From Acidimicrobiaceae bacterium (GTDB lineage Bacteria > Actinomycetota > Acidimicrobiia > Acidimicrobiales > UBA8592): a DNA stretch of 24,000 nt. Shown here one piece after another: positions 1,797 to 21,158 of this stretch (its first letter is position 1; the number at the start of each line of letters is the position of its first letter). The stretch lies in the NCBI GenBank assembly GCA_024641655.1, contig JAHECR010000030.1, positions 1-24,000 on the forward strand, read 5' to 3'. Position numbers and translations under genes: made by a program. The notes beneath the pieces were generated by a model, which saw only the letters and a list, made by a program, of their open reading frames with translations, was not told the origin of the DNA and did not search any database.

Positions 1797-2010
1797 GCCT
1801 CGGCTGCCTCGGGCGGAGGGTGGGTCGGCCGACGGCGGGGCCCTGACGACGTGCACCCGGTCGTGCTTGACGAGCACGCGCAGGAGCGGAACGGTCATGG
1901 TGCCAGGCACGCGGTGTGCGGTGCGGGCGTCATTCCTCGTCGCGCCGGTCGCGCGGGCTCGGCAGGTCTGCAGGCGTTACGCTCGCCCCGTTCGCGCGAA
2001 AGGTTGCACT

Positions 2011-3657: not shown

Positions 3658-3682
3658 CGCACCCCGCCCGGTACGGCCGTCG

Positions 3683-4462: not shown

Positions 4463-4591
4463 CGGGGCTCCAGTGGCCAACGGCTGGCGAGGTCGATGTT
4501 CGCAGCGAGTCTACGCAACGGTCCGAAGGGCGGCAGGATGAGGGCACCAGCGCGAGACGGTGCGCTGGTTGCGGTCGATCCCCGCAGGCGT

Positions 4592-4647: not shown

Positions 4648-5325
4648 GTGCGCGTCCTCGTGGTCGAAGACGAGAAGAAGCTGGCGGCCTCGATCCGGCG
4701 CGGGTTGGAGGCCGACGGGTTCGCCGTCGATGTCGCGTTGACCGGCGATGACGGGTTGTGGATGGCGCGTGAGCACGACTACGACGCCGTCGTGCTCGAC
4801 ATCATGTTGCCGGGCATGAACGGGTACAAGGTGTGCGAGACGCTGCGCGAGGAGGGCAACTGGACACCGATCCTGATCCTCACGGCCAAAGACGGCGATC
4901 TCGACGAAGCCGAGGCCCTCGACACCGGCGCCGACGACTTCCTGCGCAAGCCCTTCTCGCACGTCGTCCTCGTCGCGAGATTGCGGGCCCTGCTCCGACG
5001 GGGCGCGAAGGAGCGGCCCGTCGAGCTGCGCGTCGATGATCTGGTCGTGGATCCGAACCAGCGGCGATGTTGGCGCGGCGACACCGAGATCGAGTTGACG
5101 GCGAGGGAGTTCTCCGTGCTCGAGTACCTGACTCGCAACGCTGGCTCGGTGGTGTCCAAACAGGAGATCCTCGATCACGTCTGGGACTACGACTTCGAAG
5201 GGGACCCCAACATCGTCGAGGTCTACGTTCGTCACCTCCGCAGGAAGATCGACGAGCCGTTCGATCGATCGTCGATCCAGACGGCCCGTGGGGCGGGGTA
5301 CCGGTTGACTCTCGAGCGGACATGA
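4648..5325 (+). CDS. OmpR/PhoB-family response regulator (RR1)
   Basis: GTG at 4648 is preceded by GAAGGAG (4635-4641). The receiver domain reads VRVLVVEDEKK...VLDIMLPGMNG...LTAKD...KPF. The winged-helix output domain reads ELTAREFSVLEYL...VEVYVRHLRRKID...TARGAGYRL. Its stop overlaps the HK1 start (ATGA). Confidence 0.9.
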   Translation: MRVLVVEDEKKLAASIRRGLEADGFAVDVALTGDDGLWMAREHDYDAVVLDIMLPGMNGYKVCETLREEGNWTPILILTAKDGDLDEAEALDTGADDFLRKPFSHVVLVARLRALLRRGAKERPVELRVDDLVVDPNQRRCWRGDTEIELTAREFSVLEYLTRNAGSVVSKQEILDHVWDYDFEGDPNIVEVYVRHLRRKIDEPFDRSSIQTARGAGYRLTLERT

Positions 5326-6677
5326 GCCGGCTCCGGCGGCTCGCGCCGACGTCGATGCGCGCCCGCGCAACGCTTGCTGCAACCGTGCTGTTCGCCGTAG
5401 CGCTCACCATCGCCGCGGCCGCACTCGTCGCGGTCCTTCGGAGCACCATGACCGACAACGTCGACACGACGTTGGCACTCCGCGCGACCGATATCGCCGG
5501 CCTTTTGGCAGTGGGCGCCGACCCCGCCTCGGTCGCGATCGTCGACGAGGAGGACTCCTTCGTCCAGGTGGTCGTGGGAGACGAGGTGGTGGCTTCGAGC
5601 GTCAACGTGGCGGGGGAAGGCCCGATCGTCGACCTGTTGCCGGGCGAGGTGGTCACCGAGCGGGGAGGTCCACTCGACGGAGCGTTCCGGGTGATCGAGA
5701 CGAGGGTCGAAACCCCCACCGGTCCGGCCCGCGTGATCGTGGGCAACGCGCTCGAGGACGTCGTCCGGACCGTGGAGGTCACCCTGTTGACGCTCGCGCT
5801 CGGTATGCCGGTCTTGTTGCTGCTCGCGGGGGCCATGACCTGGATTGTGGTGGGCCGGTCGCTGCGCTCGGTGGAGGCGATCCGGGCGGAGGTCGCCGAG
5901 ATCGGTGCGAGCGGCCTGCACCGCCGGGTACCGACGCCGCCCGGTGACGACGAGATCGTCCGCTTGGCGGGGACGATGAACGACATGCTGGATCGCATCG
6001 AGTCGGGCACGATGCGTCAGCGGCGGTTCGTGTCCGATGCCTCCCACGAGCTGCGGACTCCGATCGCGACCATTCGGCACGAGTTGGAGGTCGCGTTGGC
6101 GCACAGCGCCGACACCGATTGGGCGTTGATCGCGGGCGAGGTCCTCGACGAGGACCTGCGTATGCAACGCCTGGTCGACGACCTGCTGTGGCTGGCGCGT
6201 CACGACAGCGAGGGTCCACGCCTCCGGGCGACCCTGGTCGACCTCGACGAGGTCGTGTTGCTGCAACTTCGCCGCCAACCGCCACGCCCGGGCGTTTCGA
6301 TCGACGCCAAGGGAGTCAGCGCCGGGCAGGTCCGTGGTCGGGCCGACGATCTGACCCGGGTGGTGCAGAACCTGCTGGACAACGCGATACGTCACGCATC
6401 GGGCCACGTCGTCGTCGGGGTGCGCAGTGAGGGTGGTGCGGTGCAGTTCCACGTCGACGACGACGGCCCGGGCGTCGACCCCGAACTGCGTGCGTCGATC
6501 TTCGAGCGGTTCACGCGCAGCGACGAAGCACGCGACCGGGATCACGGCGGCGCCGGCTTGGGATTGTCGATCGTCGCGGAGATCGTCGACGAACATGGAG
6601 GAGCGGTGACCGTCGGTGAGTCGCCGCTCGGTGGCGCACGCTTCACGGTTGACCTGCCCGACGCCCGGCGCGACTGA
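5322..6677 (+). CDS. Sensor histidine kinase (HK1): two TM segments, HAMP, HisKA, HATPase_c
   Basis: ATG at 5322 overlaps the RR1 stop. There is an N-terminal TM helix (ATLAATVLFAVALTIAAAALVAVL) and a second TM (LALGMPVLLLLAGAMTWIVV). H-box is FVSDASHELRTPIA. N/G boxes are NLLDNAIRH and DDDGPGV...GGAGLGLSIV. Confidence 0.9.
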   Translation: MSRLRRLAPTSMRARATLAATVLFAVALTIAAAALVAVLRSTMTDNVDTTLALRATDIAGLLAVGADPASVAIVDEEDSFVQVVVGDEVVASSVNVAGEGPIVDLLPGEVVTERGGPLDGAFRVIETRVETPTGPARVIVGNALEDVVRTVEVTLLTLALGMPVLLLLAGAMTWIVVGRSLRSVEAIRAEVAEIGASGLHRRVPTPPGDDEIVRLAGTMNDMLDRIESGTMRQRRFVSDASHELRTPIATIRHELEVALAHSADTDWALIAGEVLDEDLRMQRLVDDLLWLARHDSEGPRLRATLVDLDEVVLLQLRRQPPRPGVSIDAKGVSAGQVRGRADDLTRVVQNLLDNAIRHASGHVVVGVRSEGGAVQFHVDDDGPGVDPELRASIFERFTRSDEARDRDHGGAGLGLSIVAEIVDEHGGAVTVGESPLGGARFTVDLPDARRD

Positions 6678-8609: not shown

Positions 8610-9325
8610 TTCGGTACCGACGGCTGCCGGTCCCGGGACCGCCCGTGACGACGAGCGGCGCGGACCCCGAACCAGGCGACGAAGGCCGCAGCACCCGACA
8701 GGAGCGCGAGGTTGATCCAGTGGCTGACGGTCGCAGTGGCGCCGTAGCGGTCGCCGAGCCACCACCCTGCCGATAACAGCAGGCCGTTCCAGAGCGCGGA
8801 ACCCGCCGCGGTGAGCGCAACGAAGCGTGCCATGGGCATGCGTTGGGCGCCGGCGGGGATCGAGACCAGGCTGCGTACGCCGGGAACGAGTCGTCCCCAG
8901 AAGACGGCCGGCTGCTGCCAGCGACCGAAGACGCGCCAGGCTCGCGCCACGCCTGCCGGCTCGAGGAGCGGCAGGCGCGTAGCGATCAGCCCGATCCGTT
9001 CTTCGCCGAGGGCGGCTCCGGCCCAATACAGACACAGGGCGCCGATGACGCTGCCGACGGTCGCCCAGACGAACGTGGGCCAGAACCCGAGCTCGCCGAG
9101 GCCGGCCAGGTAACCGGCGGCCGGCAGGACCGCCTCGCTGGGAATCGGCGGGAAGATCGTCTCGATCGCAATGATGAGCCCGACCCCCGCAGCGCCGAGT
9201 GCATCGATCAGCGACGCCATCCACCCCGCCACCCCGTCGAGTTGCGCCCCACTGGTGGCAGCGAGAAGGGGGAGAGGGGCCACGAGTGCAGTGTCGGTCA
9301 GCGGAGCTGAAGAGACGCTGAACAT
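8606..9325 (-). CDS. dedA: DedA/SNARE-associated family membrane protein
   Basis: DedA core is ...AGVGLIIAIETIFPPIPSEAVLPAAGYLAG...GRLVPGVRSLVSIPAG. A strong GGAGGA lies 7-10 nt upstream of the adjacent TTG (9328) and ATG (9325). The first ~36 codons have a visibly lower third-position GC, so an internal ATG at 9220 is an alternative start. Confidence 0.8.
   Translation of the reverse strand: MFSVSSAPLTDTALVAPLPLLAATSGAQLDGVAGWMASLIDALGAAGVGLIIAIETIFPPIPSEAVLPAAGYLAGLGELGFWPTFVWATVGSVIGALCLYWAGAALGEERIGLIATRLPLLEPAGVARAWRVFGRWQQPAVFWGRLVPGVRSLVSIPAGAQRMPMARFVALTAAGSALWNGLLLSAGWWLGDRYGATATVSHWINLALLSGAAAFVAWFGVRAARRHGRSRDRQPSVPK
9305..9321 (-). promoter_or_regulatory. Phased direct-repeat box TTCAGC-gtctc-TTCAGC at the 5' end of dedA
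   Basis: On the minus strand, ATG-TTCAGCgtctcTTCAGC-tcc has 11-bp spacing. It overlaps codons 2-7 if dedA starts at 9325, or lies about 85 bp upstream if dedA starts at 9220. Confidence 0.4.
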
Positions 9326-9350
9326 CAAGTGCGGTTCCTCCCGCGGTGGA

Positions 9351-9388
9351 TTCAGCCCTTGTTCAGGTCGCTTCGCCCGACGTTCAGG
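9351..9388 (+). promoter_or_regulatory. Phased direct-repeat boxes TTCAGC-ccttg-TTCAGG ...(21 bp)... TTCAGG upstream of yggT
   Basis: Hexamers at 9351, 9362 and 9383 are spaced 11 and 21 bp apart (helical phasing). They lie 48-85 bp upstream of the yggT ATG (9436). The extended match GTTCAGGTCG is shared with the PepSY and GT4 sites. Confidence 0.5.
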
Positions 9389-9435
9389 CGGTCGGGCCGA
9401 TGGTCATCATGCCCCTGTCGTGAAAGGTACCCTCG

Positions 9436-9687
9436 ATGGCCACCGCCTTCTTGTTCGTCCTGCAGCTGGCTTCGGTGATTCTCATCGCCCGAGCCTTGCT
9501 GAGCTGGTTTCGTCCCCGTTCGGGATCCGCGCTCGATCAGGCGAAGCGCCGCATCACCTCGATCACCGATCCCGTGCTGGAGCCGGTGCGGCGGATCCTG
9601 CCCCGGCCCGCCGGCCTGGATCTGTCGATCGTGGCCGTGCTCCTCGGCATCAACCTGGTGCTCATGCCGGTGATCGCAACGCTGTAG
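9436..9687 (+). CDS. yggT: YggT (Ycf19) family small membrane protein
   Basis: 83 aa with two hydrophobic helices. It has the characteristic ILIARALLSWF...DPVLEPVRRILP...GLDLS pattern. GAAAGG lies 9 nt upstream of the ATG. Confidence 0.8.
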   Translation: MATAFLFVLQLASVILIARALLSWFRPRSGSALDQAKRRITSITDPVLEPVRRILPRPAGLDLSIVAVLLGINLVLMPVIATL

Positions 9688-9756
9688 TTGCGACCAAGGT
9701 GCCCCCGAGCGCCGGTTTCGACGCCGGCATTCGGGTGGCTGGGGGTTGCTGATGGC

Positions 9757-10254
9757 TCAGTCCTGGTGGTCCGCCTCGTCCTGGTGGCCCGCCTCGGGGT
9801 CGTCGGCACCGTCGTGTTCGTTCTGGTGGTCGATCCCGTCGGAGTCGTCGGTGCCCTCGTCGCCGGCTTCCTCGGGGTCGTCCGTTTCGTCTCCTCGGTC
9901 GATCGTGGCGACGCCGGACGTGGCGTCCACCTTGACCTCGACGGTCGCGCCGGTCGGATCGGTGACCGAGACTTCCCAGATCAGCGACCCGTTCTCGTCG
10001 CCGAGCTGGCTGTCGTTCAGGGTTCCACCGGGTGTGACGGTGAGAGCCGCCGCCTCCGCCTCGGGTTGCGTGACCGTTGCCGAAGCGGCTCTCGTGGTGT
10101 CCACCGGCTCGTCGGCGCCGTGCTCTTCGTGTTCGGCGGGAGGGTTCGTGCCGGTGTTCTGGGTCGCTGCAGCAATGCCGTAACCGCCGATCCCCACGCC
10201 GATCGCCGCAGCCGCGGTGATCGCTGCAGTGCGTACCTTGTTGCTTCCGTTCAT
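9757..10254 (-). CDS. PepSY-domain protein with N-terminal membrane anchor and acidic, His-rich C-terminal tail
   Basis: The N-terminal hydrophobic anchor is AAITAAAAIGVGIGGYGIAAA. The PepSY-like core is AALTVTPGGTLNDSQLGDENGSLIWEVSVTDPTGATVEVKVDATSGVATID. The tail is DETDDPEEAGDEGTDDSDGIDHQNEHDGADDPEAGHQDEADHQD. The family call rests on pattern recognition only. Confidence 0.65.
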   Translation of the reverse strand: MNGSNKVRTAAITAAAAIGVGIGGYGIAAATQNTGTNPPAEHEEHGADEPVDTTRAASATVTQPEAEAAALTVTPGGTLNDSQLGDENGSLIWEVSVTDPTGATVEVKVDATSGVATIDRGDETDDPEEAGDEGTDDSDGIDHQNEHDGADDPEAGHQDEADHQD

Positions 10255-10371: not shown

Positions 10372-10426
10372 CCCTGCATCGGCGATGCCTCCGCCTTCAG
10401 GGGACCCCACCGACAGAAGACCCGAC

Positions 10427-11485
10427 CTACCGAAGACCGACAGCGGGAGGCTCGCCTGCGGCAGTCGCCGTGGCCGGGGCGAGCCAACGAGTGGCCAGGT
10501 ACGACACGGCCGAGAGCGGGATCGGGGCCCAGAAGTTGAAGAGCCGGTAGATCGCAACGCCGATCGCGGCCGGAGCTGCGTCGGCGCCCAACCCGACGAG
10601 CGTCGCCGTCATCGTGAGCTCGACGACGCCCAGCCCGCCGGGGGTGAGCGGGATCATCGCCGCGAGGTTCGCGAGAGCGAACGCAACCAGGACCGAGGCC
10701 GGTGAGAGGCGCAGGCCGACGGCGGCGAGGATCAACCAGAGCGCCGCGACATCGATGAGCCAATTGGTGGCAGCCCACAACGCGGCGCGGCGCAACATCC
10801 GCGGTTGTCGGCGCCACAACTGCAGGTGCTGGGCGCAGGCCTCGAGGCCGGAGACGACGTGGCCATGACCGCCTGGGACCCGCCGATCAACGAACCTGGC
10901 CACGGCCCACAACCGTTGGTTGCGGGCCGTCACGGCGTGCGCGGTCGCCGCGAGCATCGCGAGCAGGGCAGTGGCGGGGACTGCGGCGAGCGCTCCGCTG
11001 GCGAGCCCATAGGTCGGCAGCACGGTGAGCAACCCGACACCGAGCAGGATGTTGAGCACAAGAGCGGAGCCGATGCTGGTGAACGCCATCGCGGTGGCGG
11101 CGCGAGCGCGGCCGACGCCGGAGCGTTCGAGCATCTTGAACGTCACGATGCTGCCGGCCGCACTCCCGCCCGGGATCACGTTGCTCACGCCCAGCGACGT
11201 GGTGATGATCCCGAGGGTGTGCCACAGGCCTGGGCGCGGCCCCTCGTCGATGGCCGTTCGCATGAGCTGCGCGTAGGTCATCAGTGCGGCCACCGCGCAC
11301 AGCGCCGCGATGGCGATCAGAACCGGTTGCGCCGAACCAACGGCGCCGATCGCCGACCAGGCCAGGGGGAGCTGGGGCACCGCGAGGAACCAGATCGCGG
11401 TCGTGACGGCGGCGACCTTGGCCGCGAGCTTGAGAGCCGTCGACAGCCGGCGTTGCCGGGCGAGGGGGGCGACGAGGGCGGTCAC
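10427..11485 (-). CDS. Flippase-like polytopic membrane protein (UPF0104 / LPG-synthase-TM, MprF TM-domain-like), paralogue 2
   Basis: GTG at 11485 overlaps the upstream stop (GTGA). About 352 aa and highly hydrophobic, with ...NVIPGGSAAGSIVTFKML... and ...LANLAAMIPLTPGGLGVVELTMTATL.... A PGG(L/V)G(V)xE motif near the C-terminal helices is typical of this family. The 936-aa ORF in the track is an artefactual upstream extension. Confidence 0.7.
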   Translation of the reverse strand: MTALVAPLARQRRLSTALKLAAKVAAVTTAIWFLAVPQLPLAWSAIGAVGSAQPVLIAIAALCAVAALMTYAQLMRTAIDEGPRPGLWHTLGIITTSLGVSNVIPGGSAAGSIVTFKMLERSGVGRARAATAMAFTSIGSALVLNILLGVGLLTVLPTYGLASGALAAVPATALLAMLAATAHAVTARNQRLWAVARFVDRRVPGGHGHVVSGLEACAQHLQLWRRQPRMLRRAALWAATNWLIDVAALWLILAAVGLRLSPASVLVAFALANLAAMIPLTPGGLGVVELTMTATLVGLGADAAPAAIGVAIYRLFNFWAPIPLSAVSYLATRWLAPATATAAGEPPAVGLR

Positions 11486-12543
11486 GCGGGGACCATCTCC
11501 GTCGGTGCTGCGGGCAGCACCGCGGGGGCGGCGAGAAGGGAGCCAGGGTCGGGGCGGGTCTTCGAGCCGTGCGCCATCACCGCGCCGGTGGCAACAGGTA
11601 TCCAGAGGTCGAAGACCCGGAACAACGCGACGGCGAGCGCGGCGATGCCGAGGCTGGCACCGCTCGACACGAGCAGGGCCCCGGTTGAGGCTTCGACGAC
11701 GCCGACGCCGGCAGGCACGATCGACGCCATCGATGCGGTGAGTGCCGTCGCATAGATGATGATGGCGCCCCTGAGACCCAGTGGAGCCCCGACCGCAGCG
11801 GCAGCGCAGAGCAGCATCGCCGCGCCGAGCGCCTTCGAGCCGATGGCGTGGCCGAGCGCGCGGCGCGACCAGCGGCGGTTGGATCGAGCCGCGGCGAGCG
11901 CGTCGGCGAGGTCGTTCACTGCGGTGCCGGGTTCGAGGGGACGCTTCGTCAGGCGATTGGTCGCAGCTGTCAGCGACGCCCACAGACGTTCGGCGAGGTC
12001 CCGGCGCACGACCACCAGGGCAACCGCTGCGGTGATCACGAACGCGTAGGCGCCGAAGCCGGCAGCTCCTACGAGCCACCAGCCCGACAGCGAACCACTG
12101 AACGAGAGCAGGGCAATCGTGGTCGCGAGCAGCACACCCAGGGCCGCGAGTGAGGCGAGCGAGGCGAGCAGACAGGCGGCGATGACCGAACCCTTCGGGT
12201 AGGCCTTCGTGGCGCCGTGGCGGACGAACACTGCGGCGCCGGCGAGGCCACCGAATCGCACGATCTTGTTGGCGGCGAAGCCGATCGCCGACGGGCGGTT
12301 CATGGTGAGCGGTTCCGCAGGAAGCCCAGCGGCATTGTGGGCAGCGCGGTTGAGGCCCCCCCGGTTGACGATGGCGGCGAGGGAGATCGCCAGTCCGGCG
12401 CCGAGCGGCGCCGGCGAGATGTGGCTCATGCCTGCGAGCACGGTGCGGATCGTCACCGCGTTCGCGAACGCGAACGCCGTGGCGGCGCCGGCGATCGCAG
12501 TCACCGCGAAGCTGCGCATGAACGTCCGGGTTCGGGGAGTCAT
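11482..12543 (-). CDS. Flippase-like polytopic membrane protein (UPF0104 / LPG-synthase-TM, MprF TM-domain-like), paralogue 1
   Basis: ATG at 12543 overlaps the stop of the upstream fusion gene (ATGA). 353 aa and polytopic, with ...ALTASMASIVPAGVGVVEASTGALL... matching the same C-terminal motif as paralogue 2. Confidence 0.7.
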   Translation of the reverse strand: MTPRTRTFMRSFAVTAIAGAATAFAFANAVTIRTVLAGMSHISPAPLGAGLAISLAAIVNRGGLNRAAHNAAGLPAEPLTMNRPSAIGFAANKIVRFGGLAGAAVFVRHGATKAYPKGSVIAACLLASLASLAALGVLLATTIALLSFSGSLSGWWLVGAAGFGAYAFVITAAVALVVVRRDLAERLWASLTAATNRLTKRPLEPGTAVNDLADALAAARSNRRWSRRALGHAIGSKALGAAMLLCAAAAVGAPLGLRGAIIIYATALTASMASIVPAGVGVVEASTGALLVSSGASLGIAALAVALFRVFDLWIPVATGAVMAHGSKTRPDPGSLLAAPAVLPAAPTEMVPA

Positions 12544-14414
12544 CGTGGGGCCGTGCTCGTCGCACGGCTGGTGGGAGCAATCGTGGCGGGTGGTTCCAGC
12601 ACTGGTGGGCTCTCGGTGGGCTGCCTCGGCCGTGGCTGGCCGGTAGCGGGATGCTCCGAGCCTGACCGGCCACGGCTGAACCGCTGCTGAAGGCGGGTGG
12701 GACGCGGCTGCGGCGTGTCCGAACCGTTCGTGGGGTAATCCAAGATGTTGCGCCGGGTTCGGCCGTTGCCGCGATGTCCTCGGCTGGCCATTGCACCTGA
12801 TTGCGCGCCTGTGCTGTCGCGCAGCGTTGCGAGAGGATCACCGAGCATCGTTCCGGTGGGGGTTCGACCGGGTTCGATGAACCATTCGTGGCCGAAGGCG
12901 CGAACGAACAACGCTCGAGGCAGCCGGAGGTACAGCGACAGCGCTCGCGGCCCGGCGCCACCGGAGTGCTGCGAGGCATGGGCGCGCATGGCCGCGCGTT
13001 TGGCGTCGATATACCCGGTGACGTCGACGCGATGGGTGATCTCACCGGTGGGGGAGAACGCGGCCCGGAGGGACGCTGGACGGAACTCGCGCGGCAACTT
13101 CGGCACGAGACGGAGCACGCGTGCGGCGCGATGGAGAACGGCGCGGTCGGCCGTTGCTTCGAGCACGAGGGGCGTGGCTGCAAGCTGGGCGGCGCGGGCG
13201 CCCACGTCGTGCACCTTCCGGTGGTCGGGGTGTCCATACCCCCCGGCTCGGTCGTAGGTCGTGAGCACGCCTGCGTCCTCGTCGATCAGCAGCCGGGCCA
13301 GTCGTGTGGCCGCTTCGTCGGTGTCAGCCGACGCGAAGGCTTCGGGAGCAGACGCCAGGCCATCGCGACCCGAGTCGGCGTAGCCGAGCCATTCCACCCT
13401 TGCGCAACCGAGCGCGTGCGCAGCGTCGTGCAGCTCGCCCAGGCGCATGGTCGCGAGCTCCGCTGGGGGGTGGTCCGCGCCGGTGAGCCCCGCCTCGCCG
13501 AGCGTCGCGACCACCACGACCACCCGGTTCCCTTCGGCGGCAAGGCGCGCCAGGGTGCCACCGGTGAAGAGGCTCTCGTCGTCGGGGTGTGCATGGAACG
13601 ACACCACCGTGTGGCGCGGTCCGATCGACGACTCCGGCCGCGCCGGCCGCGACCCGACCGGCATGACCTGCAGTGCCGGCGTGACGCTCCGTCGGGCCCA
13701 GACGCCGGCCGCGCCAAAGCTCGCGGCCAGCCCCAGAGCGGTGCCGGCGGCGACGTCGGCGACGTAGTGGTTCCCCGTCGCGACCACCACCACCGCGGTC
13801 AAGCCCGGGTGCAGTGCGAACAGCGCTCGGGCCCACCACCGGCGGGTGCCGGCGATGCCTGCCGCTGCGACACACACCGCCCAGGCAAGGTGCAGTGAGG
13901 GCATCGCTGCGTATGCGTTCATCGGCAGCGGCCCGTGGGACGAGCCGAAACCGGCCCGAGCGACCAGGTCGGTGAACGCCGCGCCGGGCAACAGCCGCGG
14001 CGGTGCAACCGGATACAGCGCGAACGCGGCGAGGCCCACGACGTTCGTCGTGATCAGGGCGTTGCGTCCGAACCGGTAGGCGTCAGGGCGTCTGCGGTAA
14101 CACCAGGCGAGCACGGCGAACGCGACGCCGATGTGCGCAAGTTGGTAGTACCAGACCGAGAGCGTCGAGAGGGCACTGCTCTGGGCAGTCCAGGCGTTGA
14201 ACCGCGCCTCGAAGCCGAAGAGGCCCTCGGTGCCGAGCAGGTCCAGGCCGTGCTGCACGGCCTCGGTTCGGTGGAGCGGCGCGAGCGACCGTAGATGGTC
14301 GTAGAAGAACAGCAGGCAGACCGCGATCGCGAGCTCACCGGACAACGCGGGTCGCTGCACTCCGTCTTCCAAGCTGACTGCCCGCTCCCTGCGAAGCACT
14401 GCCGCTGGGATCAT
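12540..14414 (-). CDS. Fusion protein: N-terminal PAP2_3 (Aur1/IPC-synthase-like PAP2 membrane domain) + C-terminal PIG-L/LmbE-family de-N-acetylase + ~95-aa basic/Pro-rich tail
   Basis: The N-terminal ~250 aa are polytopic and carry PAP2-type motifs ...YPVAPPRLLP..., AAMPSLHLAWAV and GNHYVADVAAG. The PIG-L domain has VVSFHAHPDDESLFTGG (AHPDDE encoded at 13575-13592) and GGYGHPDHRKVH (HPDH at 13221-13232). Both ends overlap their neighbours by ATGA. Confidence 0.75.
   Translation of the reverse strand: MIPAAVLRRERAVSLEDGVQRPALSGELAIAVCLLFFYDHLRSLAPLHRTEAVQHGLDLLGTEGLFGFEARFNAWTAQSSALSTLSVWYYQLAHIGVAFAVLAWCYRRRPDAYRFGRNALITTNVVGLAAFALYPVAPPRLLPGAAFTDLVARAGFGSSHGPLPMNAYAAMPSLHLAWAVCVAAAGIAGTRRWWARALFALHPGLTAVVVVATGNHYVADVAAGTALGLAASFGAAGVWARRSVTPALQVMPVGSRPARPESSIGPRHTVVSFHAHPDDESLFTGGTLARLAAEGNRVVVVVATLGEAGLTGADHPPAELATMRLGELHDAAHALGCARVEWLGYADSGRDGLASAPEAFASADTDEAATRLARLLIDEDAGVLTTYDRAGGYGHPDHRKVHDVGARAAQLAATPLVLEATADRAVLHRAARVLRLVPKLPREFRPASLRAAFSPTGEITHRVDVTGYIDAKRAAMRAHASQHSGGAGPRALSLYLRLPRALFVRAFGHEWFIEPGRTPTGTMLGDPLATLRDSTGAQSGAMASRGHRGNGRTRRNILDYPTNGSDTPQPRPTRLQQRFSRGRSGSEHPATGQPRPRQPTESPPVLEPPATIAPTSRATSTAPR
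12675..12691 (-). promoter_or_regulatory. Phased direct-repeat box TTCAGC-agcgg-TTCAGC, about 130 bp upstream of the flippase-like pair and inside the 3' tail of the fusion ORF
   Basis: The plus strand has GCTGAA at 12675 and 12686 (11-bp spacing). The architecture and orientation relative to the downstream gene match the other five boxes. Confidence 0.4.
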
Positions 14415-15748
14415 GCCGACAACGCCTCAGGGCGGCCGCTCGGCGATGGGACAGCACGCAAAGACGACGAGCGGTCGACGTCGACCTCGTCGCCGAGTGT
14501 TGTTCCGAGTACCGTTGCAGCGCGCGAGTACAGGTCGTCGGTGCGTCGCAGCGCCTGGGCCCAGCCGAACGCGGGTGCGACCCGGCGATTGTGCGCGGCG
14601 ATGCGGTCACGGAGCTCGGCGTCGGTGACGAGCGACCGCAGGGCCTCGACCATCCCGGCGTCGCCGTCGACGAGCAGTCCCGACTGGCCGTGGTCGATGA
14701 ACTCGTTGATGCCGGATTTGGCCATGGCAACCACGGGGAGCCCTGCCGCACGCGCCTCCAGGGCAGCGAGACCGAAGGACTCCTTGACCGCCGGAGCGAC
14801 GAAGATGTCCGCGGCGCCGAACAGCTCACGGATCTCGTCGTGGGTGGCAACGCCGCGCAGGCTGACCCACCGGTCCATGTCGTGACGAGCAAGGTACCGG
14901 TTCATGGCCGACCGCTCTGGGCCTTCGCCGATGATCACGACCCGGATGGGAACCGCAGCCGGGGTGGTTTGTCGGAGCTTCCTCAGCAGACCGAGCAGCG
15001 GCATCGCCCGCTTTCGAGGTGCGAGGCGCATCACGGCAGCGATGACGATGCCCTCGTGGACTCGGGTGCTGCCCGCGTGCCACTTCTCCACGTCGATCGC
15101 GTTGGTGAGCACGTCGACGGTGGAGTCCTGCCCGAGGACGGTTTGGAGCTGGGCAGCGGCCACATGGCTGACCGAGGTCCACGCGACCGGCCACTCACGC
15201 CAACCCGTGAGGCGATCCAGCCCTCGGTACAGCATCCCGAAACCGCCGACCATCGAGTGCATGGTCACGACGGTTGGTATGCCGGCGCGGCTTGCGGTTG
15301 CGGCGACGGTGAACGACAGGGGCGTTGCCAGCCCTGCATGGATGTGCACGGCGTCGTAGCCGCCGCCGACGATCGCCTCGACCGCAGCGTCGATGGCGCG
15401 GGGCGAGTAGCTCTCGAAGGTGGAGCCCTTCCGGCTCGAGGCCCACGCGACGCGGCCATCGCCGTCTTCCACGACCCCGCCGGCGGACACGACATCCACC
15501 GCGTGGCCCGCCCTTCGCTGGGCCGCCGAGAGCGCAGCGATGTGCACCTCGATGCCGCCGAGTCTCGGGAAGTAATAGTCGCTCACGTGGGCGACCCGCA
15601 GACTCCGTCGCCCGGGCGATGTCGTGGTCCGATCAGCGAGGTCCGGGAACGCAACCTCGGGTCGGTGTCGTCGTGAGGGGAACAGCTCCGAGCTGAGGGG
15701 CCTGTGGTCGTGGGGCCAGGTCAGTGGGACGAGCTGGTTGGACTGCAT
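14411..15748 (-). CDS. GT4-family (GT-B) glycosyltransferase, PimA/MshA/PIG-A-like
   Basis: RVAHVSDYYFPRLGGIEVHI matches the N-terminal GT4 G-rich loop. The EX7E motif is KESFGLAALEARAAGLPVV. ATG at 15748 has AAGGA 9 nt upstream. The ORF could extend to ATG 15787, but that would place the TTCAG box only 12 bp from the start. Confidence 0.85.
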   Translation of the reverse strand: MQSNQLVPLTWPHDHRPLSSELFPSRRHRPEVAFPDLADRTTTSPGRRSLRVAHVSDYYFPRLGGIEVHIAALSAAQRRAGHAVDVVSAGGVVEDGDGRVAWASSRKGSTFESYSPRAIDAAVEAIVGGGYDAVHIHAGLATPLSFTVAATASRAGIPTVVTMHSMVGGFGMLYRGLDRLTGWREWPVAWTSVSHVAAAQLQTVLGQDSTVDVLTNAIDVEKWHAGSTRVHEGIVIAAVMRLAPRKRAMPLLGLLRKLRQTTPAAVPIRVVIIGEGPERSAMNRYLARHDMDRWVSLRGVATHDEIRELFGAADIFVAPAVKESFGLAALEARAAGLPVVAMAKSGINEFIDHGQSGLLVDGDAGMVEALRSLVTDAELRDRIAAHNRRVAPAFGWAQALRRTDDLYSRAATVLGTTLGDEVDVDRSSSLRAVPSPSGRPEALSA

Positions 15749-15798
15749 CGAGAGGTCCTTGGCGATTCGGAGGCGTGACCGGAGCATGCGTACGACGA

Positions 15799-15815
15799 CC
15801 TGAAGGTTGGCTGAA
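15799..15815 (-). promoter_or_regulatory. Phased direct-repeat box GTTCAGC-caacc-TTCAGGTCG upstream of the GT4 operon
   Basis: The plus strand has CCTGAA at 15799 and GCTGAA at 15810 (11-bp spacing). The box sits in the 41-80 bp gap between the lipoprotein stop (15829) and the GT4 start, 51 bp upstream of ATG 15748. Confidence 0.5.
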
Positions 15816-15828
15816 CGACCTCGGCCCG

Positions 15829-16419
15829 TCAGTCGGGGACCTCCGCGCCGCCGGCATCCTTCTGGACTGTTGTGGTCTGGGGTGCGGCTCCGTCCGCGCT
15901 CACCTCGACGGTGACGTCGAGGGCGTTCAGATCGGTGTAGTAGAGGCTGTAGGCGTTCACCGCGAAGTGGTCGGCAGTGCCGGTGTCGTCGAAGTGGATG
16001 ACGCGGGTGGCCCCGGCGGCGATGGTGAACGACGCCGGCAACGCTGCGTAGTAGCTCTCACTGACGTCGGTGATCGGGTCGTGGTAGCGGTAGAAGACCT
16101 CGAAGCCGCTCAGTTCGGTGTCCGAGGCGTTGGTGACGGTGATCTCGAGATGATCGTCCACCGCAGCGCCGCTGGCGTCTTCGTTGTTCTCGACGAGGAC
16201 CGAGTCGATCGTGAAGGCTTCCGTCGTCGCCGTGTTGGTGATGGGGTTCATCGCCACGGGCAGTACCTGATCGGAGCCGCTCGCGGTGGGCGACGCGTGT
16301 GCGTTGCCGGCGCTGCCGCAGGCGCCGAGGAGTCCGGGGCCTCCTGCGAGCGCAGCTGCGGTGACGAGGCCTGCGGCGAGGCGGCGTCGAAGAAGTCGGG
16401 GACCGTGGCGGAGGGTCAT
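15829..16419 (-). CDS. Putative lipoprotein of unknown function (possibly Tat-exported)
   Basis: The signal peptide MTLRHGPRLLRRRLAAGLVTAAALAGGPGLLGAC has an RRR motif and a lipobox-like LGAC. The mature part is acidic and predicted beta-rich, with no motif I recognise. Its ATG overlaps the upstream permease stop (ATGA). Confidence 0.65.
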   Translation of the reverse strand: MTLRHGPRLLRRRLAAGLVTAAALAGGPGLLGACGSAGNAHASPTASGSDQVLPVAMNPITNTATTEAFTIDSVLVENNEDASGAAVDDHLEITVTNASDTELSGFEVFYRYHDPITDVSESYYAALPASFTIAAGATRVIHFDDTGTADHFAVNAYSLYYTDLNALDVTVEVSADGAAPQTTTVQKDAGGAEVPD

Positions 16420-17408
16420 TGTTCTACTCCTTGGGTGATGGCGGGTCGTGAGCGGAAGGTGCGGCGGAGGCCCGAGGTCAGCGCGGTGGCGCCGGCGATC
16501 AGCCAGCCGATGTCGTTGCGCGTGGTGTTGAGCAGCCAGGGCAGGTCATGGGGGCGGTAGCGCTCCTTGACGTCGGTCATCGCAAAGGCAAACCGTTCGA
16601 AGTGCTTCGCGAGCGAGAGCTCTTCGGTCCAGGTTCGGATGCGCTCGTAGCTGGTGAAGTGGGCGAGGATCGTGACCTCACCGTCGTGGCCGAGGCCGAG
16701 GGCGCTGAAGAGCCCGCCCGGGACCTGATTGTCGGCATCGAGGGTGTCGCCGATCTGGGGGAGGATGAGCACGACGATCAGCCACACCCCGAGCGCAACC
16801 ATGAGACCGTTCGCTCCCACGCGCGATCGGGCGGTTACGATGGCGCCGAGACTGTAGAACGCGATCAAGTAGAGCAGCGCGGCGAGATAGCTCAGCAGGA
16901 GCTGAAGCGCCTCTCGGGCGTTGATCCAGTCGTGGCCGATCGTCCCGACGCACAACACGGCCGTGGTAGCGGTGACCGCGATCAGGGTCGAGAACACCGC
17001 ACAGGCACCGACGACGCTGCCCGTCGCGTGTTCGCCGGCGGTGAGTGGCCGTGATCCCAACAGGGCCAGGGTGCGGCTCACTCGTTCGCGCGAGACGGAG
17101 AGGTAGCCCAGGGCGATGGCGATGACTGCGCCGACGATCTCGAGGTACTCCATCGCGCCGCGCAGGAGGGACAGGGGTGCGAGCGGCGACGGGGCGATGC
17201 GGTCGAGGCCGCCAGCGGTGGCGGCCGCCTTGTAGGCCTCGTAGTCGGCGAGTTGGCTCGCGTAGTCGACCGAGCCGATGTAGACCGAGGCGACGGTGAC
17301 CGCAACCAGGATCGCCCCGAGGCTGATCAGGAGACGGCTGCGCGCCGCGGCGCGGTACTCGTGGCGGGCGATGAGGAGCATGCGCGCACGCGCTCGGGCA
17401 TCAGGCAT
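16416..17408 (-). CDS. ABC-2 type transporter permease (subunit B)
   Basis: 330 aa and polytopic, with a large first extracytoplasmic loop, consistent with ABC-2/NosY-like permeases. It overlaps the upstream permease by 8 nt (ATGCCTGA). Confidence 0.7.
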   Translation of the reverse strand: MPDARARARMLLIARHEYRAAARSRLLISLGAILVAVTVASVYIGSVDYASQLADYEAYKAAATAGGLDRIAPSPLAPLSLLRGAMEYLEIVGAVIAIALGYLSVSRERVSRTLALLGSRPLTAGEHATGSVVGACAVFSTLIAVTATTAVLCVGTIGHDWINAREALQLLLSYLAALLYLIAFYSLGAIVTARSRVGANGLMVALGVWLIVVLILPQIGDTLDADNQVPGGLFSALGLGHDGEVTILAHFTSYERIRTWTEELSLAKHFERFAFAMTDVKERYRPHDLPWLLNTTRNDIGWLIAGATALTSGLRRTFRSRPAITQGVEQ

Positions 17409-18318
17409 CGCCGGCGCCCCGGGAGAAGTCGTAACGGCTCACGACGGCGACGAGGGTTGCAGCCAGCAACACGCTTGCGCCGAGTACGGGCGCGACCCGT
17501 TCGAGCGTGCGCCACGACGATTCGGTCGCCGGCGCGGTGGCGAGGATGTGCGCGCTCGCTTCCTTGTACTGCTCGACGATCGAGAAGGGCCGGGCGTGTG
17601 CGGTGGCGCGGAAGAAGGCCTGCGACGTGCTGACCGGTTCGGTGATCGGGTTCAGCGACGACGTAGGCCGCAGGCCCGAGGTGAACTGGGGAACGACGAA
17701 GGTGACCACCAGCCAGACCCCCACAGCGCTGAGCAGCCCGAGCGATCTGTGGCGGCTGACAGCCACCGTCGCCATCCCGACGAGCGCGAACGCGATGAGG
17801 TAGAGCCATGAGAGCACGAAGAAGAGGGCGAGGCGGGCGATGTCAGCGGCGGCGATCGTGTGGTCGACCACCAGGAGGTCTGCGGTGCTGATGCCCAGGC
17901 TGGCCGCCATGGTGGCTGCGAGGACCCCTGCGGCCGCGACCGTCTTGCCGACGAGGTACTCGATACGGTCGACGGGGCGGGAGAAGATCAGGCGGCCGAT
18001 CCCGCCGGTCTGGTCGTCGGCGAGGCTGAGGTGTCCGATGATCAGCGCCAGCAGGGCACCGATGAGGGGCAGGTAGACGACCAGGTTCGAGAGCAAGGAC
18101 AGCGTCGGCTTCAACAGAAAGGGGTTGGGGGGCGGGGGCTTGCCCTGGGACGCGAGGAGCGTCACCGCCTGGTCGTAGACGCCGACGATGGTGTGGTGGC
18201 TCGACCAGCCGAGCACGCCTGCGAGCGCGGTCATGGCGCCCAGAACGCCCAGCATCGCCAGGAACGTTCGTTGACGGGTCAGCGAACGGACCTGGTGCGC
18301 GGCGACCGTGAAGATCAC
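17401..18318 (-). CDS. ABC-2 type transporter permease (subunit A)
   Basis: 305 aa and polytopic. GTG at 18318 overlaps the ATPase stop (GTGA). It is a paralogue of the downstream permease in overall topology. Confidence 0.7.
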   Translation of the reverse strand: MIFTVAAHQVRSLTRQRTFLAMLGVLGAMTALAGVLGWSSHHTIVGVYDQAVTLLASQGKPPPPNPFLLKPTLSLLSNLVVYLPLIGALLALIIGHLSLADDQTGGIGRLIFSRPVDRIEYLVGKTVAAAGVLAATMAASLGISTADLLVVDHTIAAADIARLALFFVLSWLYLIAFALVGMATVAVSRHRSLGLLSAVGVWLVVTFVVPQFTSGLRPTSSLNPITEPVSTSQAFFRATAHARPFSIVEQYKEASAHILATAPATESSWRTLERVAPVLGASVLLAATLVAVVSRYDFSRGAGDA

Positions 18319-19049: not shown

Positions 19050-19155
19050 GGTGCTCCTTCGCTGCATCTGTCGAGGGCTCTGGAGCTGAAGGTACGGACC
19101 TGCCGGTGAGCGGTTTGCCAGATCCAGGAGGGACCAGGCGAGATCTCGGCCAGAA

Positions 19156-21107: not shown

Positions 21108-21158
21108 GCCCCCACGGTACGGGCGTGCCCGCGCGGAGCGTAACGATCTGGCCAACTT

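What the first reader, a model, noticed from the sequence alone, without database searches (positions are those of the whole stretch)
10427..15815. Four-gene translationally coupled operon: GT4 glycosyltransferase, PAP2_3::PIG-L deacetylase fusion and two MprF-TM-like flippase paralogues - candidate uncharacterised aminoglycolipid pathway
Seen in sequence: four minus-strand genes are chained by 4-nt start/stop overlaps (ATGA at 14411-14414, ATGA at 12540-12543, GTGA at 11482-11485). Gene 1 is a GT4 enzyme (EX7E motif, PimA/MshA/PIG-A class). Gene 2 fuses a polytopic PAP2_3 domain (PSLH and NHYVADV motifs, the Aur1/IPC-synthase branch of PAP2) to a PIG-L/LmbE zinc de-N-acetylase (AHPDDE and HPDH). 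Genes 3 and 4 are paralogous ~352-aa UPF0104 proteins of the type that forms the flippase half of MprF. Established knowledge: a GT4 paired with a PIG-L enzyme is the recurrent 'transfer GlcNAc, then de-N-acetylate' logic of MshA/MshB (mycothiol), BshA/BshB (bacillithiol) and eukaryotic PIG-A/PIG-L (GlcNAc-PI to GlcN-PI, followed by flipping). The MprF TM domain translocates the cationic lipid lysyl-PG. Inference: tethering the deacetylase to a membrane phosphotransferase/phosphatase domain, and coupling it to two flippase-like proteins, argues that the substrate is a membrane lipid rather than a soluble thiol precursor. The product would be a GlcN-bearing (free amine, cationic) phospho- or glycolipid made on the inner leaflet and moved outward, a bacterial analogue of the first GPI steps and a possible charge-modifying envelope lipid. 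I do not recognise this fusion or operon as a characterised system.
Basis: partly seen in the sequence, partly recalled or inferred. Interest (0 to 1): 0.85.

Follow-up and report, generated by a model that had tools for sequence, protein, structure and literature searches.

The report
Actinobacterial amino-sugar membrane-lipid gene cluster
Four overlapping genes encode a sugar transferase, a membrane enzyme fused to a sugar de-acetylase, and two lipid flippases; together they most likely build a glucosamine-bearing membrane lipid and move it to the outer face, a so far uncharacterised actinobacterial version of a lipid-modification scheme recently proven in Pseudomonas and Clostridioides.

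Summary
There are four minus-strand genes: GT4, a PAP2_3::PIG-L fusion, and two UPF0104 flippase-like proteins. Only the outer coordinate is wrong: 15815 is out of frame, and the start is ATG 15748 or 15787.

The array is conserved. A 62%-identical relative has the same four genes with the same overlaps. GT4–fusion–flippase recurs in six other contexts. The four components also occur unfused.

An unfused GT4 + PIG-L + flippase trio is widespread. It appears in about 40 of the 80 actinobacterial species genomes sampled. The fusion itself is a single narrow lineage.

Topology places the PIG-L domain in the cytoplasm and the PAP2_3 His-His-Asp triad on the outer face, with the flippases logically in between.

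The "glycosyltransferase, deacetylase, MprF-like flippase" logic is already proven in gpgSDF (GlcN-PG) and HexRK/hexSDF. Those systems use unrelated deacetylases and have no PAP2 step.

Verdict: a new variant of a known kind. The lipid acceptor (PI, PG or DAG) and the PAP2_3 reaction are unresolved. A link to the "unknown glucosamine phospholipids" of actinomycete chemotaxonomy is possible but untested.

The parts
14411..15748 (-). G1: GT4 retaining glycosyltransferase, the predicted lipid GlcNAc-transferase. An alternative upstream ATG lies at 15787. The GT-B fold begins about 50 residues after the start, and the N-terminal extension is not conserved.
   Evidence: Pfam PF00534 92.8 bits and PF13439 64.9 bits. 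EX7E at nt 14756-14782. NCBI's product is 445 aa (P0121). A family profile matches BshA 5d00 and PimA 2gej equally, at 113 bits. Orthologues sit next to the fusion or to an unfused PIG-L gene in 50 loci.
13680..14357 (-). G2 N-terminal half: PAP2_3 six-helix membrane domain. The triad is His175/His216/Asp220 (PSLH nt 13890-13901; NHYVADV nt 13752-13772), predicted on the extracytoplasmic face.
   Evidence: Pfam PF14378 133.9 bits. AF2 model with pLDDT 88.7 and six TM helices. The triad is invariant in 14 fusions and in 22 fused or stand-alone relatives. K+R counts are 11-24 in predicted inside loops against 1-7 outside. Foldseek matches are LpxE 6ebu, Aur1 9ivc and IPC synthase 9vj4.
12825..13619 (-). 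G2 C-terminal half: PIG-L/LmbE zinc de-N-acetylase domain (AHPDDE nt 13575-13592; HPDH nt 13221-13232), predicted cytoplasmic.
   Evidence: Pfam PF02585 95.3 bits. The best NCBIfam hit is MshB at 135.7 bits, below its 224 cut-off. Foldseek gives MshB 4ewl at E 1e-14, TM 0.72-0.74, 30% identity. The metal and catalytic motifs are invariant.
12540..12824 (-). G2 non-conserved Arg/Pro/Thr/Ser-rich tail, which runs into the ATGA overlap with G3.
   Evidence: Absent from all 13 homologous fusions. Codon-position GC is flat (0.66/0.72/0.71), against GC3 of 0.83-0.88 in the other coding parts.
11482..12543 (-). G3: UPF0104 / LPG_synthase_TM flippase-like protein, the divergent paralogue (group A).
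   Evidence: Pfam PF03706 56.3 bits. Its orthologue is L088_F1, at 57-61% identity.
10427..11485 (-). G4: UPF0104 / LPG_synthase_TM flippase-like protein (group B), with a GTG start.
   Evidence: Pfam PF03706 110.1 bits. TIGR00374 flippase-like domain scores 71.6 bits, above its 43.2 cut-off. Orthologues are L088_F2 and L087_F, at 64-65% identity. A terminator-like hairpin lies at 10440-10422 (the count is no higher than chance).
4648..5325 (+). OmpR-type response regulator. It is the orthologue of the regulator that lies directly upstream of GT4 in related loci, so it is the candidate regulator of the operon.
   Evidence: Pfam Response_reg plus Trans_reg_C. It is 79% identical to the L005 and L090 regulators. 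GTG start with an AAGGAG site 6 nt upstream.
5322..6677 (+). HAMP/HisKA histidine kinase, partner of the regulator above (ATGA overlap).
   Evidence: Pfam HAMP, HisKA and HATPase_c. It is 55% identical to the L005 and L090 kinases. The overlap was read.

Best explanation
This is a self-contained envelope-lipid modification module of the 'synthase-deacetylase-flippase' type, with one extra outer-face step.

1. Inferred from family: the GT4 enzyme, at the cytoplasmic face, transfers GlcNAc, presumably from UDP-GlcNAc, to a diacylglycerol-based membrane lipid. I favour an anionic phospholipid, PI over PG. DAG is the alternative.
2. Domain, catalytic motifs and cytoplasmic location are shown. The substrate is inferred. 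The PIG-L domain of the fusion removes the N-acetyl group and leaves a free amine (a GlcN-lipid).
3. Inferred by homology to the MprF flippase domain, GpgF and HexF: G4, helped or diversified by the older paralogue G3, moves the lipid to the outer leaflet.
4. Topology and an intact triad are shown. The reaction is inferred. The PAP2_3 domain of the same polypeptide uses its His-His-Asp triad on the outer face for an SMS/Aur1-type phosphodiester exchange. The flipped lipid would act as donor or acceptor, and diacylglycerol would be released.

The expected outcome is a less anionic outer surface. Expression is probably controlled by the conserved OmpR-type two-component system, as with HexRK-hexSDF. 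Most actinobacteria carry only steps 1-3 (the unfused trio). The PAP2_3 step is an add-on in one branch.
For: Domain identities and intact catalytic motifs.

Synteny:
- GT4-fusion-flippase occurs in seven independent contexts, and the identical four-gene array occurs in L088/89.
- Among 80 species-representative actinobacterial genomes, 40 of 41 loci with a PIG-L of this clade (>=285 bits) have the GT4 orthologue adjacent, and 34 also have a flippase. None of the 39 loci with the lower-scoring PIG-L clade do.
- The closest stand-alone PAP2_3 relatives sit in PIG-L | GT4-PAP2_3 | flippase clusters (L092-94). L024 and L019 show the same. The four components therefore travel together in three different gene arrangements.

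Topology: the AF2 model has pLDDT 88.7 and six TM helices. The positive-inside count holds in all 13 fusions. This matches the solved Aur1, whose termini are cytosolic and whose triad is luminal (PMC12122681).

The PIG-L half is structurally closest to MshB, a GlcNAc-inositol deacetylase.

Precedents with lipidomic proof: gpgSDF makes GlcNAc-PG and then GlcN-PG (PMC12713373). HexRK-hexSDF makes an aminohexosyl glycolipid and confers daptomycin and bacitracin resistance (PMC10128005).

The orthologous two-component system lies directly upstream of GT4 in L005 and L090, and within 4 kb here.

Acidimicrobiia isolates contain PI and PIMs, and one is reported with an aminophosphoglycolipid.
Against: No lipid, donor sugar or acceptor has been observed. 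Everything functional is inferred from family membership and gene context.

The GT4 profile is equidistant from BshA (soluble acceptor) and PimA (PI acceptor), so it does not identify the acceptor.

Structure comparison of the PAP2 half alone is weak. It ranks the phosphatases LpxE and PgpB at or above SMSr (E 9e-3, 0.26, 0.45). 'Transferase rather than phosphatase' therefore rests only on the Pfam PAP2_3 assignment and on the absence of the C1 Lys and C3 Ser-Arg motifs.

Flippase activity of stand-alone UPF0104 proteins has not been demonstrated biochemically, even for GpgF (PMC12713373).

The two-component-system link is seen in only three of about eight contexts.

Most modules lack PAP2_3, so its step is not essential to the core pathway.
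Confidence: 0.55

Rival explanations
1. GlcN-diacylglycerol route. The PAP2_3 domain's job is to generate diacylglycerol, either by hydrolysing a phospholipid or as a by-product of head-group transfer. The GT4 glycosylates that DAG to GlcNAc-DAG, PIG-L converts it to the cationic glycolipid GlcN-DAG, and the flippases export it.
For: In Actinomycetota, PAP2_3 domains are repeatedly fused to DAG-consuming enzymes. Examples are WS/DGAT (P0056 and many others) and MGDG-synthase-like glycosyltransferases (P0054, P0063). In L092-94 and L024, PAP2_3 is co-transcribed directly after GT4. GT4 members match the alpha-monoglucosyl-DAG synthase model (31 of 32 members, best E 2e-24). HexS acts on a glyceroglycolipid rather than a phospholipid.
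Against: The predicted active site is on the outer face while GT4 is cytoplasmic, so DAG would have to flip back. Most trios work without any PAP2_3 neighbour. The domain lacks the Lys and Ser-Arg residues typical of phosphatidate-type monoesterases.
Confidence: 0.17
2. Carrier-lipid or cell-wall decoration, an Arn-like logic. The sugar is assembled and de-acetylated on a lipid carrier and then flipped. The PAP2_3 domain or another enzyme passes it to a wall polymer or lipoglycan, or PAP2_3 recycles the pyrophosphate carrier.
For: An LCP (LytR-CpsA-Psr) gene directly follows the fusion in L001. The UppP/BacA gene lies nearby in the window. The best structural neighbour of the PAP2 half is LpxE. 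GT87-PAP2_3 fusions in Streptomyces place this domain beside outer-face lipoglycan enzymes.
Against: GT4 enzymes are not known to build polyprenyl-phosphate sugars. No polyprenyl-phosphate GT2, phosphoglycosyltransferase, Wzx or GT-C gene is conserved with the module. The LCP and UppP neighbours are each seen in a single context only.
Confidence: 0.12
3. A soluble low-molecular-weight thiol or pseudo-disaccharide pathway: MshA/MshB-like or BshA/BshB-like, or the aminoglycoside-type GT4 + PIG-L pair. The membrane genes would be merely adjacent.
For: The best NCBIfam hits are BshA/MshA for G1 and MshB/Mca for the PIG-L half. MshB is the closest solved structure.
Against: All scores are far below the equivalog cut-offs (99 vs 274; 88 vs 462; 136 vs 224). 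The deacetylase is covalently fused to a polytopic membrane domain. Flippase genes co-occur in 34 of 41 unfused loci. No cysteine ligase, acetyltransferase or aminoglycoside genes are nearby.
Confidence: 0.04

Closest known systems
gpgSDF of Pseudomonas aeruginosa (GlcN-phosphatidylglycerol synthesis; PMC12713373)
   Same: It is a three-step operon logic: a GT4 lipid GlcNAc-transferase, a cytoplasmic de-N-acetylase and a UPF0104 (MprF-TM-like) flippase. The product is an amino-sugar lipid that lowers membrane negative charge.
   Different: GpgD is a COG3233-type deacetylase, unrelated to PIG-L. There is no PAP2 domain and only one flippase. The window proteins are not orthologues: GlcN_PG_synth scores 45 bits against a 480 cut-off, and GlcN_PG_flip scores 27 against 320. 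The phylum differs, and the acceptor here is unknown.
HexRK-hexSDF of Clostridioides difficile (aminohexosyl-hexosyl-diradylglycerol; PMC10128005)
   Same: It combines a synthase, a deacetylase and an MprF-like flippase under an adjacent OmpR-type two-component system. It is linked to resistance against membrane- and lipid II-targeting antibiotics.
   Different: HexS is annotated as MGDG-synthase-like rather than GT4. HexD is a polysaccharide (CE4-type) deacetylase. The acceptor is a glycolipid. There is no PAP2 step.
Eukaryotic GPI steps 1-2 (PIG-A complex, PIG-L) and mycothiol MshA/MshB
   Same: A GT4 GlcNAc-transferase is followed by a PIG-L-family zinc de-N-acetylase acting on a GlcNAc-inositol moiety. 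In GPI synthesis the product is then flipped.
   Different: No evidence here identifies inositol or PI as the acceptor. The MshA and MshB equivalog thresholds are not met. MshA and MshB are soluble. PIG-L is not fused to a PAP2 domain.
Aur1/Ipt1 IPC synthases and sphingomyelin synthases (PAP2_3 / LPT-type phosphotransferases)
   Same: The domain belongs to Pfam PAP2_3 and has a six-helix core with a His...His-x3-Asp triad at the exoplasmic surface and cytosolic termini (PMC12122681). It lacks the phosphomonoesterase Lys and Ser-Arg motifs.
   Different: It is not an orthologue: the bacterial phosphoinositol-dihydroceramide synthase model scores 26 bits against a 480 cut-off. Structural similarity is weak (E 2e-3, and not recovered with the isolated domain). 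No Kei1-like subunit was identified. Donor and acceptor are unknown.
MprF
   Same: G3 and G4 belong to the family of the MprF flippase (TM) domain, PF03706.
   Different: There is no aminoacyl-PG synthase domain. The bifunctional MprF model scores 59-60 bits against a 600 cut-off.

Membership tests
Synthase-deacetylase-flippase aminoglycolipid operons (gpgSDF / hexSDF type) | A lipid-directed glycosyltransferase gene in the operon | tested here: met
   G1 is GT4, the same CAZy family as GpgS. It is not a GpgS orthologue (45 bits against 480).
Synthase-deacetylase-flippase aminoglycolipid operons (gpgSDF / hexSDF type) | A de-N-acetylase gene in the operon, homologous to GpgD (COG3233) or HexD (polysaccharide deacetylase) | tested here: not met
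   The deacetylase here is PIG-L/LmbE (PF02585), a different fold. It is analogous to GpgD and HexD, not homologous.
Synthase-deacetylase-flippase aminoglycolipid operons (gpgSDF / hexSDF type) | A stand-alone MprF-TM-like (UPF0104) flippase gene in the operon | tested here: met
   G3 scores 56 bits and G4 110 bits to PF03706. G4 passes TIGR00374. The feature is conserved in related loci.
Synthase-deacetylase-flippase aminoglycolipid operons (gpgSDF / hexSDF type) | HexNAc-lipid and HexN-lipid products that depend on the genes | not testable with these tools
   This needs lipidomics of a deletion mutant or a heterologous expression strain.
Mycothiol pathway (MshA / MshB) | Scores above the NCBIfam equivalog cut-offs for MshA (462.5) and MshB (224.35) | tested here: not met
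   G1 scores 88.1 bits and the PIG-L half 135.7 bits. Unfused orthologues score 135-149.
Mycothiol pathway (MshA / MshB) | It is the only MshB-like enzyme of the genome, or it complements mshB | not testable with these tools
   Only a 24-kb window was available. A separate lone PIG-L clade is common in Acidimicrobiia genomes.
PIG-L / LmbE zinc de-N-acetylases | The Pfam domain, plus the metal and catalytic motifs (A/H)HPDDE and HPDH, plus an MshB-like fold | tested here: met
   PF02585 scores 95.3 bits. The motifs are invariant. Foldseek to MshB gives E 1e-14 and TM 0.72-0.74.
PAP2_3 (Aur1 / Ipt1 / SMS-like phosphotransferases) | The Pfam PAP2_3 domain with a His...His-x3-Asp triad | tested here: met
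   PF14378 scores 133.9 bits. H175, H216 and D220 are invariant in 14 fusions and in 22 fused or stand-alone relatives.
PAP2_3 (Aur1 / Ipt1 / SMS-like phosphotransferases) | The triad lies at the exoplasmic membrane surface and both termini are cytosolic | tested here: met
   This is a prediction only: AF2 helices plus the positive-inside count in 13 homologues, compared with the Aur1 structure (PMC12122681).
PAP2_3 (Aur1 / Ipt1 / SMS-like phosphotransferases) | Closest structural neighbours are phosphotransferases rather than phosphatases | tested here: inconclusive
   With the whole model: LpxE 9e-4, Aur1 2e-3, IPC synthase 2e-3. With the isolated domain: LpxE 9e-3, PgpB 0.26, SMSr 0.45, and Aur1 is not listed.
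PAP2_3 (Aur1 / Ipt1 / SMS-like phosphotransferases) | Phospho-head-group transfer from a glycerophospholipid with release of DAG | not testable with these tools
   This needs an enzymatic assay. Indirect hint: recurrent fusions to DAG-consuming enzymes.
MprF | A C-terminal aminoacyl-PG synthase domain fused to the flippase domain | tested here: not met
   Only PF03706 is found. NF033480 scores 59-60 bits against a 600 cut-off.

The most novel reading that the evidence does not exclude
The module is a bacterial GlcN-phosphatidylinositol pathway: GT4 acts like PIG-A/PimA on PI, the PIG-L domain makes GlcN-PI, and the flippase exports it. That would be a prokaryotic counterpart of the first GPI-anchor steps. 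In the unfused form, which is common in Streptosporangiaceae, Intrasporangiaceae and other families, it would be the long-missing genetic basis of the 'unknown glucosamine-containing phospholipids' (GluNU, phospholipid types PIV/PV) used in actinomycete chemotaxonomy since the 1970s. In the fused branch, the Aur1-like domain would then pass the GlcN-inositol-phosphate head group to an outer-face acceptor.
Probability: 0.2. Interest if true: 0.85.

Novelty: new variant of a known kind. Interest (0 to 1): 0.6.

Why it matters
Charge-modifying membrane lipids such as lysyl-PG, GlcN-PG and aminohexosyl glycolipids are determinants of resistance to cationic peptides, daptomycin and bacitracin.

This cluster would extend the synthase-deacetylase-flippase scheme to Actinomycetota with a non-homologous (PIG-L) deacetylase. 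That would show convergent assembly of the same pathway logic.

It also gives a defined three- or four-gene candidate for amino-sugar lipids that are reported in many actinomycete descriptions but, as far as the searches here could find, have not been linked to genes.

The fusion has one active site on each membrane face and the flippases between them. That makes it a compact system for studying how lipid synthesis, flipping and outer-leaflet head-group transfer are coupled.

The question is directly testable by expressing the module and running lipidomics.

Tried and rejected
1. The upstream ABC-2 transporter, the adjacent two-component system and the 196-aa acidic protein (15829-21155) were considered as operon members. 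I rejected them as core parts because none is conserved next to the module in any related locus.
2. Mycothiol or bacillithiol enzymes: rejected on equivalog scores and context.
3. Rosetta-stone fusions PIG-L+flippase (P0055), PIG-L+GT4 (P0094, P0115) and PIG-L+ABC-2 (P0090): hmmscan shows only partial domains. These are probably frameshifted or mis-called metagenomic genes, so they were not used as evidence.
4. Discriminating the GT4 acceptor with a family profile against PDB and NCBIfam: BshA and PimA tie at 113 bits, which is uninformative.
5. Discriminating phosphatase from phosphotransferase by folding the PAP2 half alone: the matches are weak and mixed.
6. All-vs-all clustering of neighbouring ORFs, to find further conserved partners: swamped by high-GC shadow ORFs and family-level synteny. 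Pfam scans of the flanks in Dactylosporangium and Nocardioides showed nothing recurrent.
7. The look-up of encoding contigs for the window's own fusion protein found nothing on record. The organism could not be named. The nearest named relatives are Acidimicrobiales MAGs.
8. The genome scan used only PIG-L motifs as seeds, so it could not directly recover fusions.
10. Literature searches for PAP2_3+PIG-L, for LmbE+MprF+glycosyltransferase+glucosamine, and for GluNU biosynthesis found no characterisation.


Full report
**Observation**

The window is high-GC (about 0.69). Its minus strand carries four consecutive ORFs:

| Gene | Coordinates | Length | Pfam result |
|---|---|---|---|
| G1 | 14411-15787 | 458 aa from the first ATG | Glycos_transf_1 92.8 bits, Glyco_transf_4 64.9 bits (GT4) |
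| G2 | 12540-14414 | 624 aa | PAP2_3 133.9 bits (res 66-231), then PIG-L 95.3 bits (res 273-408) |
| G3 | 11482-12543 | 353 aa | LPG_synthase_TM 56.3 bits |
| G4 | 10427-11485 | 352 aa, GTG start | LPG_synthase_TM 110.1 bits |

- I read the three junctions directly.
- The public annotation of the same protein is 445 aa, which puts the start at ATG 15748 (P0121). An AAGGA sequence lies 9 nt upstream of it.
- G3 and G4 are homologous but distant: 35% identity over 141 residues.

**Conservation**

Proteins with both halves of G2 form a small group: about 18 clusters at 90% identity, 53-62% identical to G2 (one outlier at 36%), all from metagenomes or Acidimicrobiales MAGs. In a library of 1.84 billion 50%-identity representatives, only one representative covers both halves. 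The fusion is therefore a single narrow lineage.

- Around these fusions the order GT4-fusion-flippase recurs with otherwise unrelated flanking genes (L001, L002-4, L005/6, L087, L090/91).
- L088/89, whose fusion is 62% identical, has the same four genes, including two flippase genes and 4-nt overlaps.
- G3 and G4 each have their own orthologue there (57-61% and 64%). The single flippases of other loci belong either to the G4 group or to a third group.

A scan of one genome per species used PIG-L motifs as seeds. An HMM survey of the 80 loci it returned gave a bimodal result:

| PIG-L score to this clade | Loci | GT4 orthologue adjacent | Flippase adjacent |
|---|---|---|---|
| >=285 bits | 41 | 40 | 34 |
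| <=270 bits | 39 | 0 | 0 |

- The higher-scoring loci come from Nocardioides, Terrabacter, Nonomuraea, Streptosporangium, Herbidospora, Planomonospora, Microbispora, Kribbella, Saccharothrix, Dactylosporangium, Actinomadura, Iamiaceae and others.
- The closest stand-alone PAP2_3 relatives of the N-terminal half (44-47% identical) lie in clusters of the form PIG-L | GT4-PAP2_3 | flippase (L092-94). Actinomadura violacea (L024) and L019 also carry PAP2_3 beside the trio.
- So the widespread unit is an unfused GT4 + PIG-L + flippase trio. PAP2_3 is an accessory that joins it in three different gene arrangements, one of which is the fusion seen here.

**Anatomy of the fusion**

The AlphaFold model of residues 1-535 is confident (pLDDT 88.7). 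It shows six transmembrane helices, a disordered linker (245-268) and a PIG-L fold.

- The PIG-L half superposes on M. tuberculosis MshB (E 1e-14, TM 0.72-0.74, 30% identity). The zinc and catalytic motifs are invariant.
- It scores 135.7 bits on the MshB equivalog model, whose cut-off is 224. The unfused orthologues and the lone clade are also below the cut-off. It is an MshB relative, not MshB.
- In the PAP2_3 half, His175, His216 and Asp220 are invariant in fused and stand-alone relatives. Their spacing matches Aur1 His255/His294/Asp298.
- In the solved Aur1 structure that triad sits at the luminal surface and both termini are cytosolic (PMC12122681).
- The loops predicted to be cytoplasmic carry 11-24 Lys+Arg, against 1-7 in the outer loops, in all 13 fusions.
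- The inference is that the triad faces outward and the PIG-L domain, which follows helix 6, is cytoplasmic. The polypeptide then has one active site on each side of the membrane.
- The domain lacks the Lys of motif C1 and the Ser-Arg of motif C3 that phosphomonoesterases of this superfamily use. This fits the SMS/Aur1 phosphodiester-transferase type.
- Structure comparison cannot settle that point. LpxE and PgpB score as well as Aur1 or SMSr.

**Known precedents**

NCBIfam now holds models named GlcNAc-PG synthase and GlcN-PG flippase, which gave weak hits. That led to two characterised systems:

- gpgSDF of P. aeruginosa: a GT4, a COG3233 deacetylase and a UPF0104 flippase. Lipidomics of mutants and expression in E. 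coli show GlcNAc-PG followed by GlcN-PG (PMC12713373).
- HexRK-hexSDF of C. difficile: an MGDG-synthase-like transferase, a polysaccharide deacetylase and an MprF-like flippase, controlled by an adjacent two-component system. It is needed for an aminohexosyl glycolipid and for daptomycin and bacitracin resistance (PMC10128005).

What has no precedent that I could find is the PIG-L deacetylase in this role, the PAP2_3 step, and the actinobacterial distribution.

**Regulatory context**

- A response regulator and histidine kinase pair lies directly upstream of GT4 in L005 and L090/91.
- Its orthologue (79% and 55% identity) is in the window at 4648-6677 on the plus strand. That is about 3.7 kb beyond G4, past the PepSY, metallophosphoesterase and UppP/BacA genes.
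- The other two-component system, the ABC-2 transporter and the acidic 196-aa protein lie immediately upstream of G1. They are not conserved with the module.

**Mechanism and its limits**

The best-supported account has four steps:

1. The GT4 adds GlcNAc to a membrane lipid at the inner leaflet.
2. The cytoplasmic PIG-L domain de-N-acetylates it.
3. G4, with G3, flips the product to the outer leaflet.
4. In this branch, the outer-face PAP2_3 domain performs a phosphodiester exchange involving the flipped lipid and releases DAG.

Shown here: the domains, the motifs, the conserved gene linkage and the predicted topology. Inferred: the donor sugar, the acceptor, the flipping and the PAP2_3 reaction.

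- The acceptor is open. A profile of 32 GT4 orthologues matches BshA and PimA equally, at 113 bits.
- PI is attractive because PIG-A/PimA, PIG-L/MshB and Aur1/Ipt1 all act on inositol head groups. Acidimicrobiia isolates also contain PI and PIMs.
- DAG is a serious alternative, because actinobacterial PAP2_3 domains are repeatedly fused to DAG-using enzymes: WS/DGAT and MGDG-synthase-like glycosyltransferases.
- A carrier-lipid or wall-decoration reading is suggested by the LCP neighbour in L001 and the similarity to LpxE. It has little conserved support.

**Speculative link**

Several families that carry the unfused trio (Streptosporangiaceae, relatives of Intrasporangium) are the ones described as having 'unknown glucosamine-containing phospholipids'. 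Other carriers (Nocardioides, Kribbella) are, from my own recollection of the chemotaxonomic literature rather than any tool result here, not usually described that way. I could not run a genome-wide correlation, so this remains a lead.

**Verdict**

The feature is real, conserved and uncharacterised in its own right. It is a new variant of a known kind of system rather than a new kind.

Noticed in passing
window 12540-12824 (-): The last 94 residues of the fusion are Arg/Pro/Thr/Ser-rich and absent from every homologue. They also lack the third-position GC bias of the surrounding genes (0.71 against 0.83-0.88). This looks like read-through into former intergenic DNA after loss of the ancestral stop codon. 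P0005 has a different long tail.
   Followed up: partly
window 4648-6677 (+): An OmpR-type response regulator and a HAMP histidine kinase, joined by an ATGA overlap, are orthologous (79% and 55% identity) to the pair directly upstream of GT4 in L005 and L090. They are the candidate regulators of the operon, although they lie 3.7 kb away on the other strand.
   Followed up: partly
window 15829-21155 (-): Directly upstream on the same strand lie a second two-component system, a DrrA-like ABC ATPase, two ABC-2 permeases, and a 196-aa protein with one hydrophobic N-terminal segment and a very acidic remainder (25 D/E against 3 K/R, no Pfam hit). None of these is conserved with the module elsewhere. 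The set looks like an antimicrobial-export or immunity unit.
   Followed up: partly
window 6703-10254 (-): UppP/BacA (undecaprenyl-pyrophosphate phosphatase), a 512-aa metallophosphoesterase and a PepSY-domain protein lie between the operon and the conserved two-component system. With the flanking systems, this makes the region look like an envelope-stress neighbourhood.
   Followed up: no
L040-L086 (39 loci, e.g. L054 Mycobacterium colombiense, L060 Mycolicibacter algericus, L064 Microthrixaceae): A second clade of stand-alone PIG-L proteins is 44-50% identical to the fusion's C-terminal half. It has no GT4 or flippase neighbour, and it scores below both the MshB and Mca equivalog cut-offs (92-157 bits). 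It is apparently a third, uncharacterised PIG-L paralogue that is widespread in Actinomycetota.
   Followed up: partly
P0056, P0078, P0054, P0063, P0100, P0112: Actinobacterial PAP2_3 domains occur fused to WS/DGAT acyltransferases, to GT87 (PimE-like) glycosyltransferases, to MGDG-synthase-like glycosyltransferases and to UPF0104 flippase domains. The recurring DAG-using partners suggest that these PAP2_3 domains release diacylglycerol.
   Followed up: partly
L001 12036-13247: In the Acidimicrobiales MAG GCA_041394285.1, a LytR-CpsA-Psr (LCP) gene directly follows the fusion. The flippase gene lies 4.7 kb further on, after a glycogen-debranching-like gene and a PP2C gene.
   Followed up: no
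window 10427-13237 (-): The reading frame of G4 stays open for 936 codons, running back through G3 and into G2. This is an artefact of the high GC content, not a gene. Many long antisense shadow ORFs occur throughout the region.
   Followed up: yes
window 10422-10440 (-): A terminator-like hairpin followed by a T-rich tract sits exactly at the G4 stop codon. It is consistent with the end of the operon, but the number of such sites in the region is no higher than in shuffled sequence.
   Followed up: no
window 472-4480: Two AMP-binding (acyl-CoA or adenylate-forming) enzyme genes and a short-chain dehydrogenase gene lie at the left end of the window. No link to the operon is evident.
   Followed up: no
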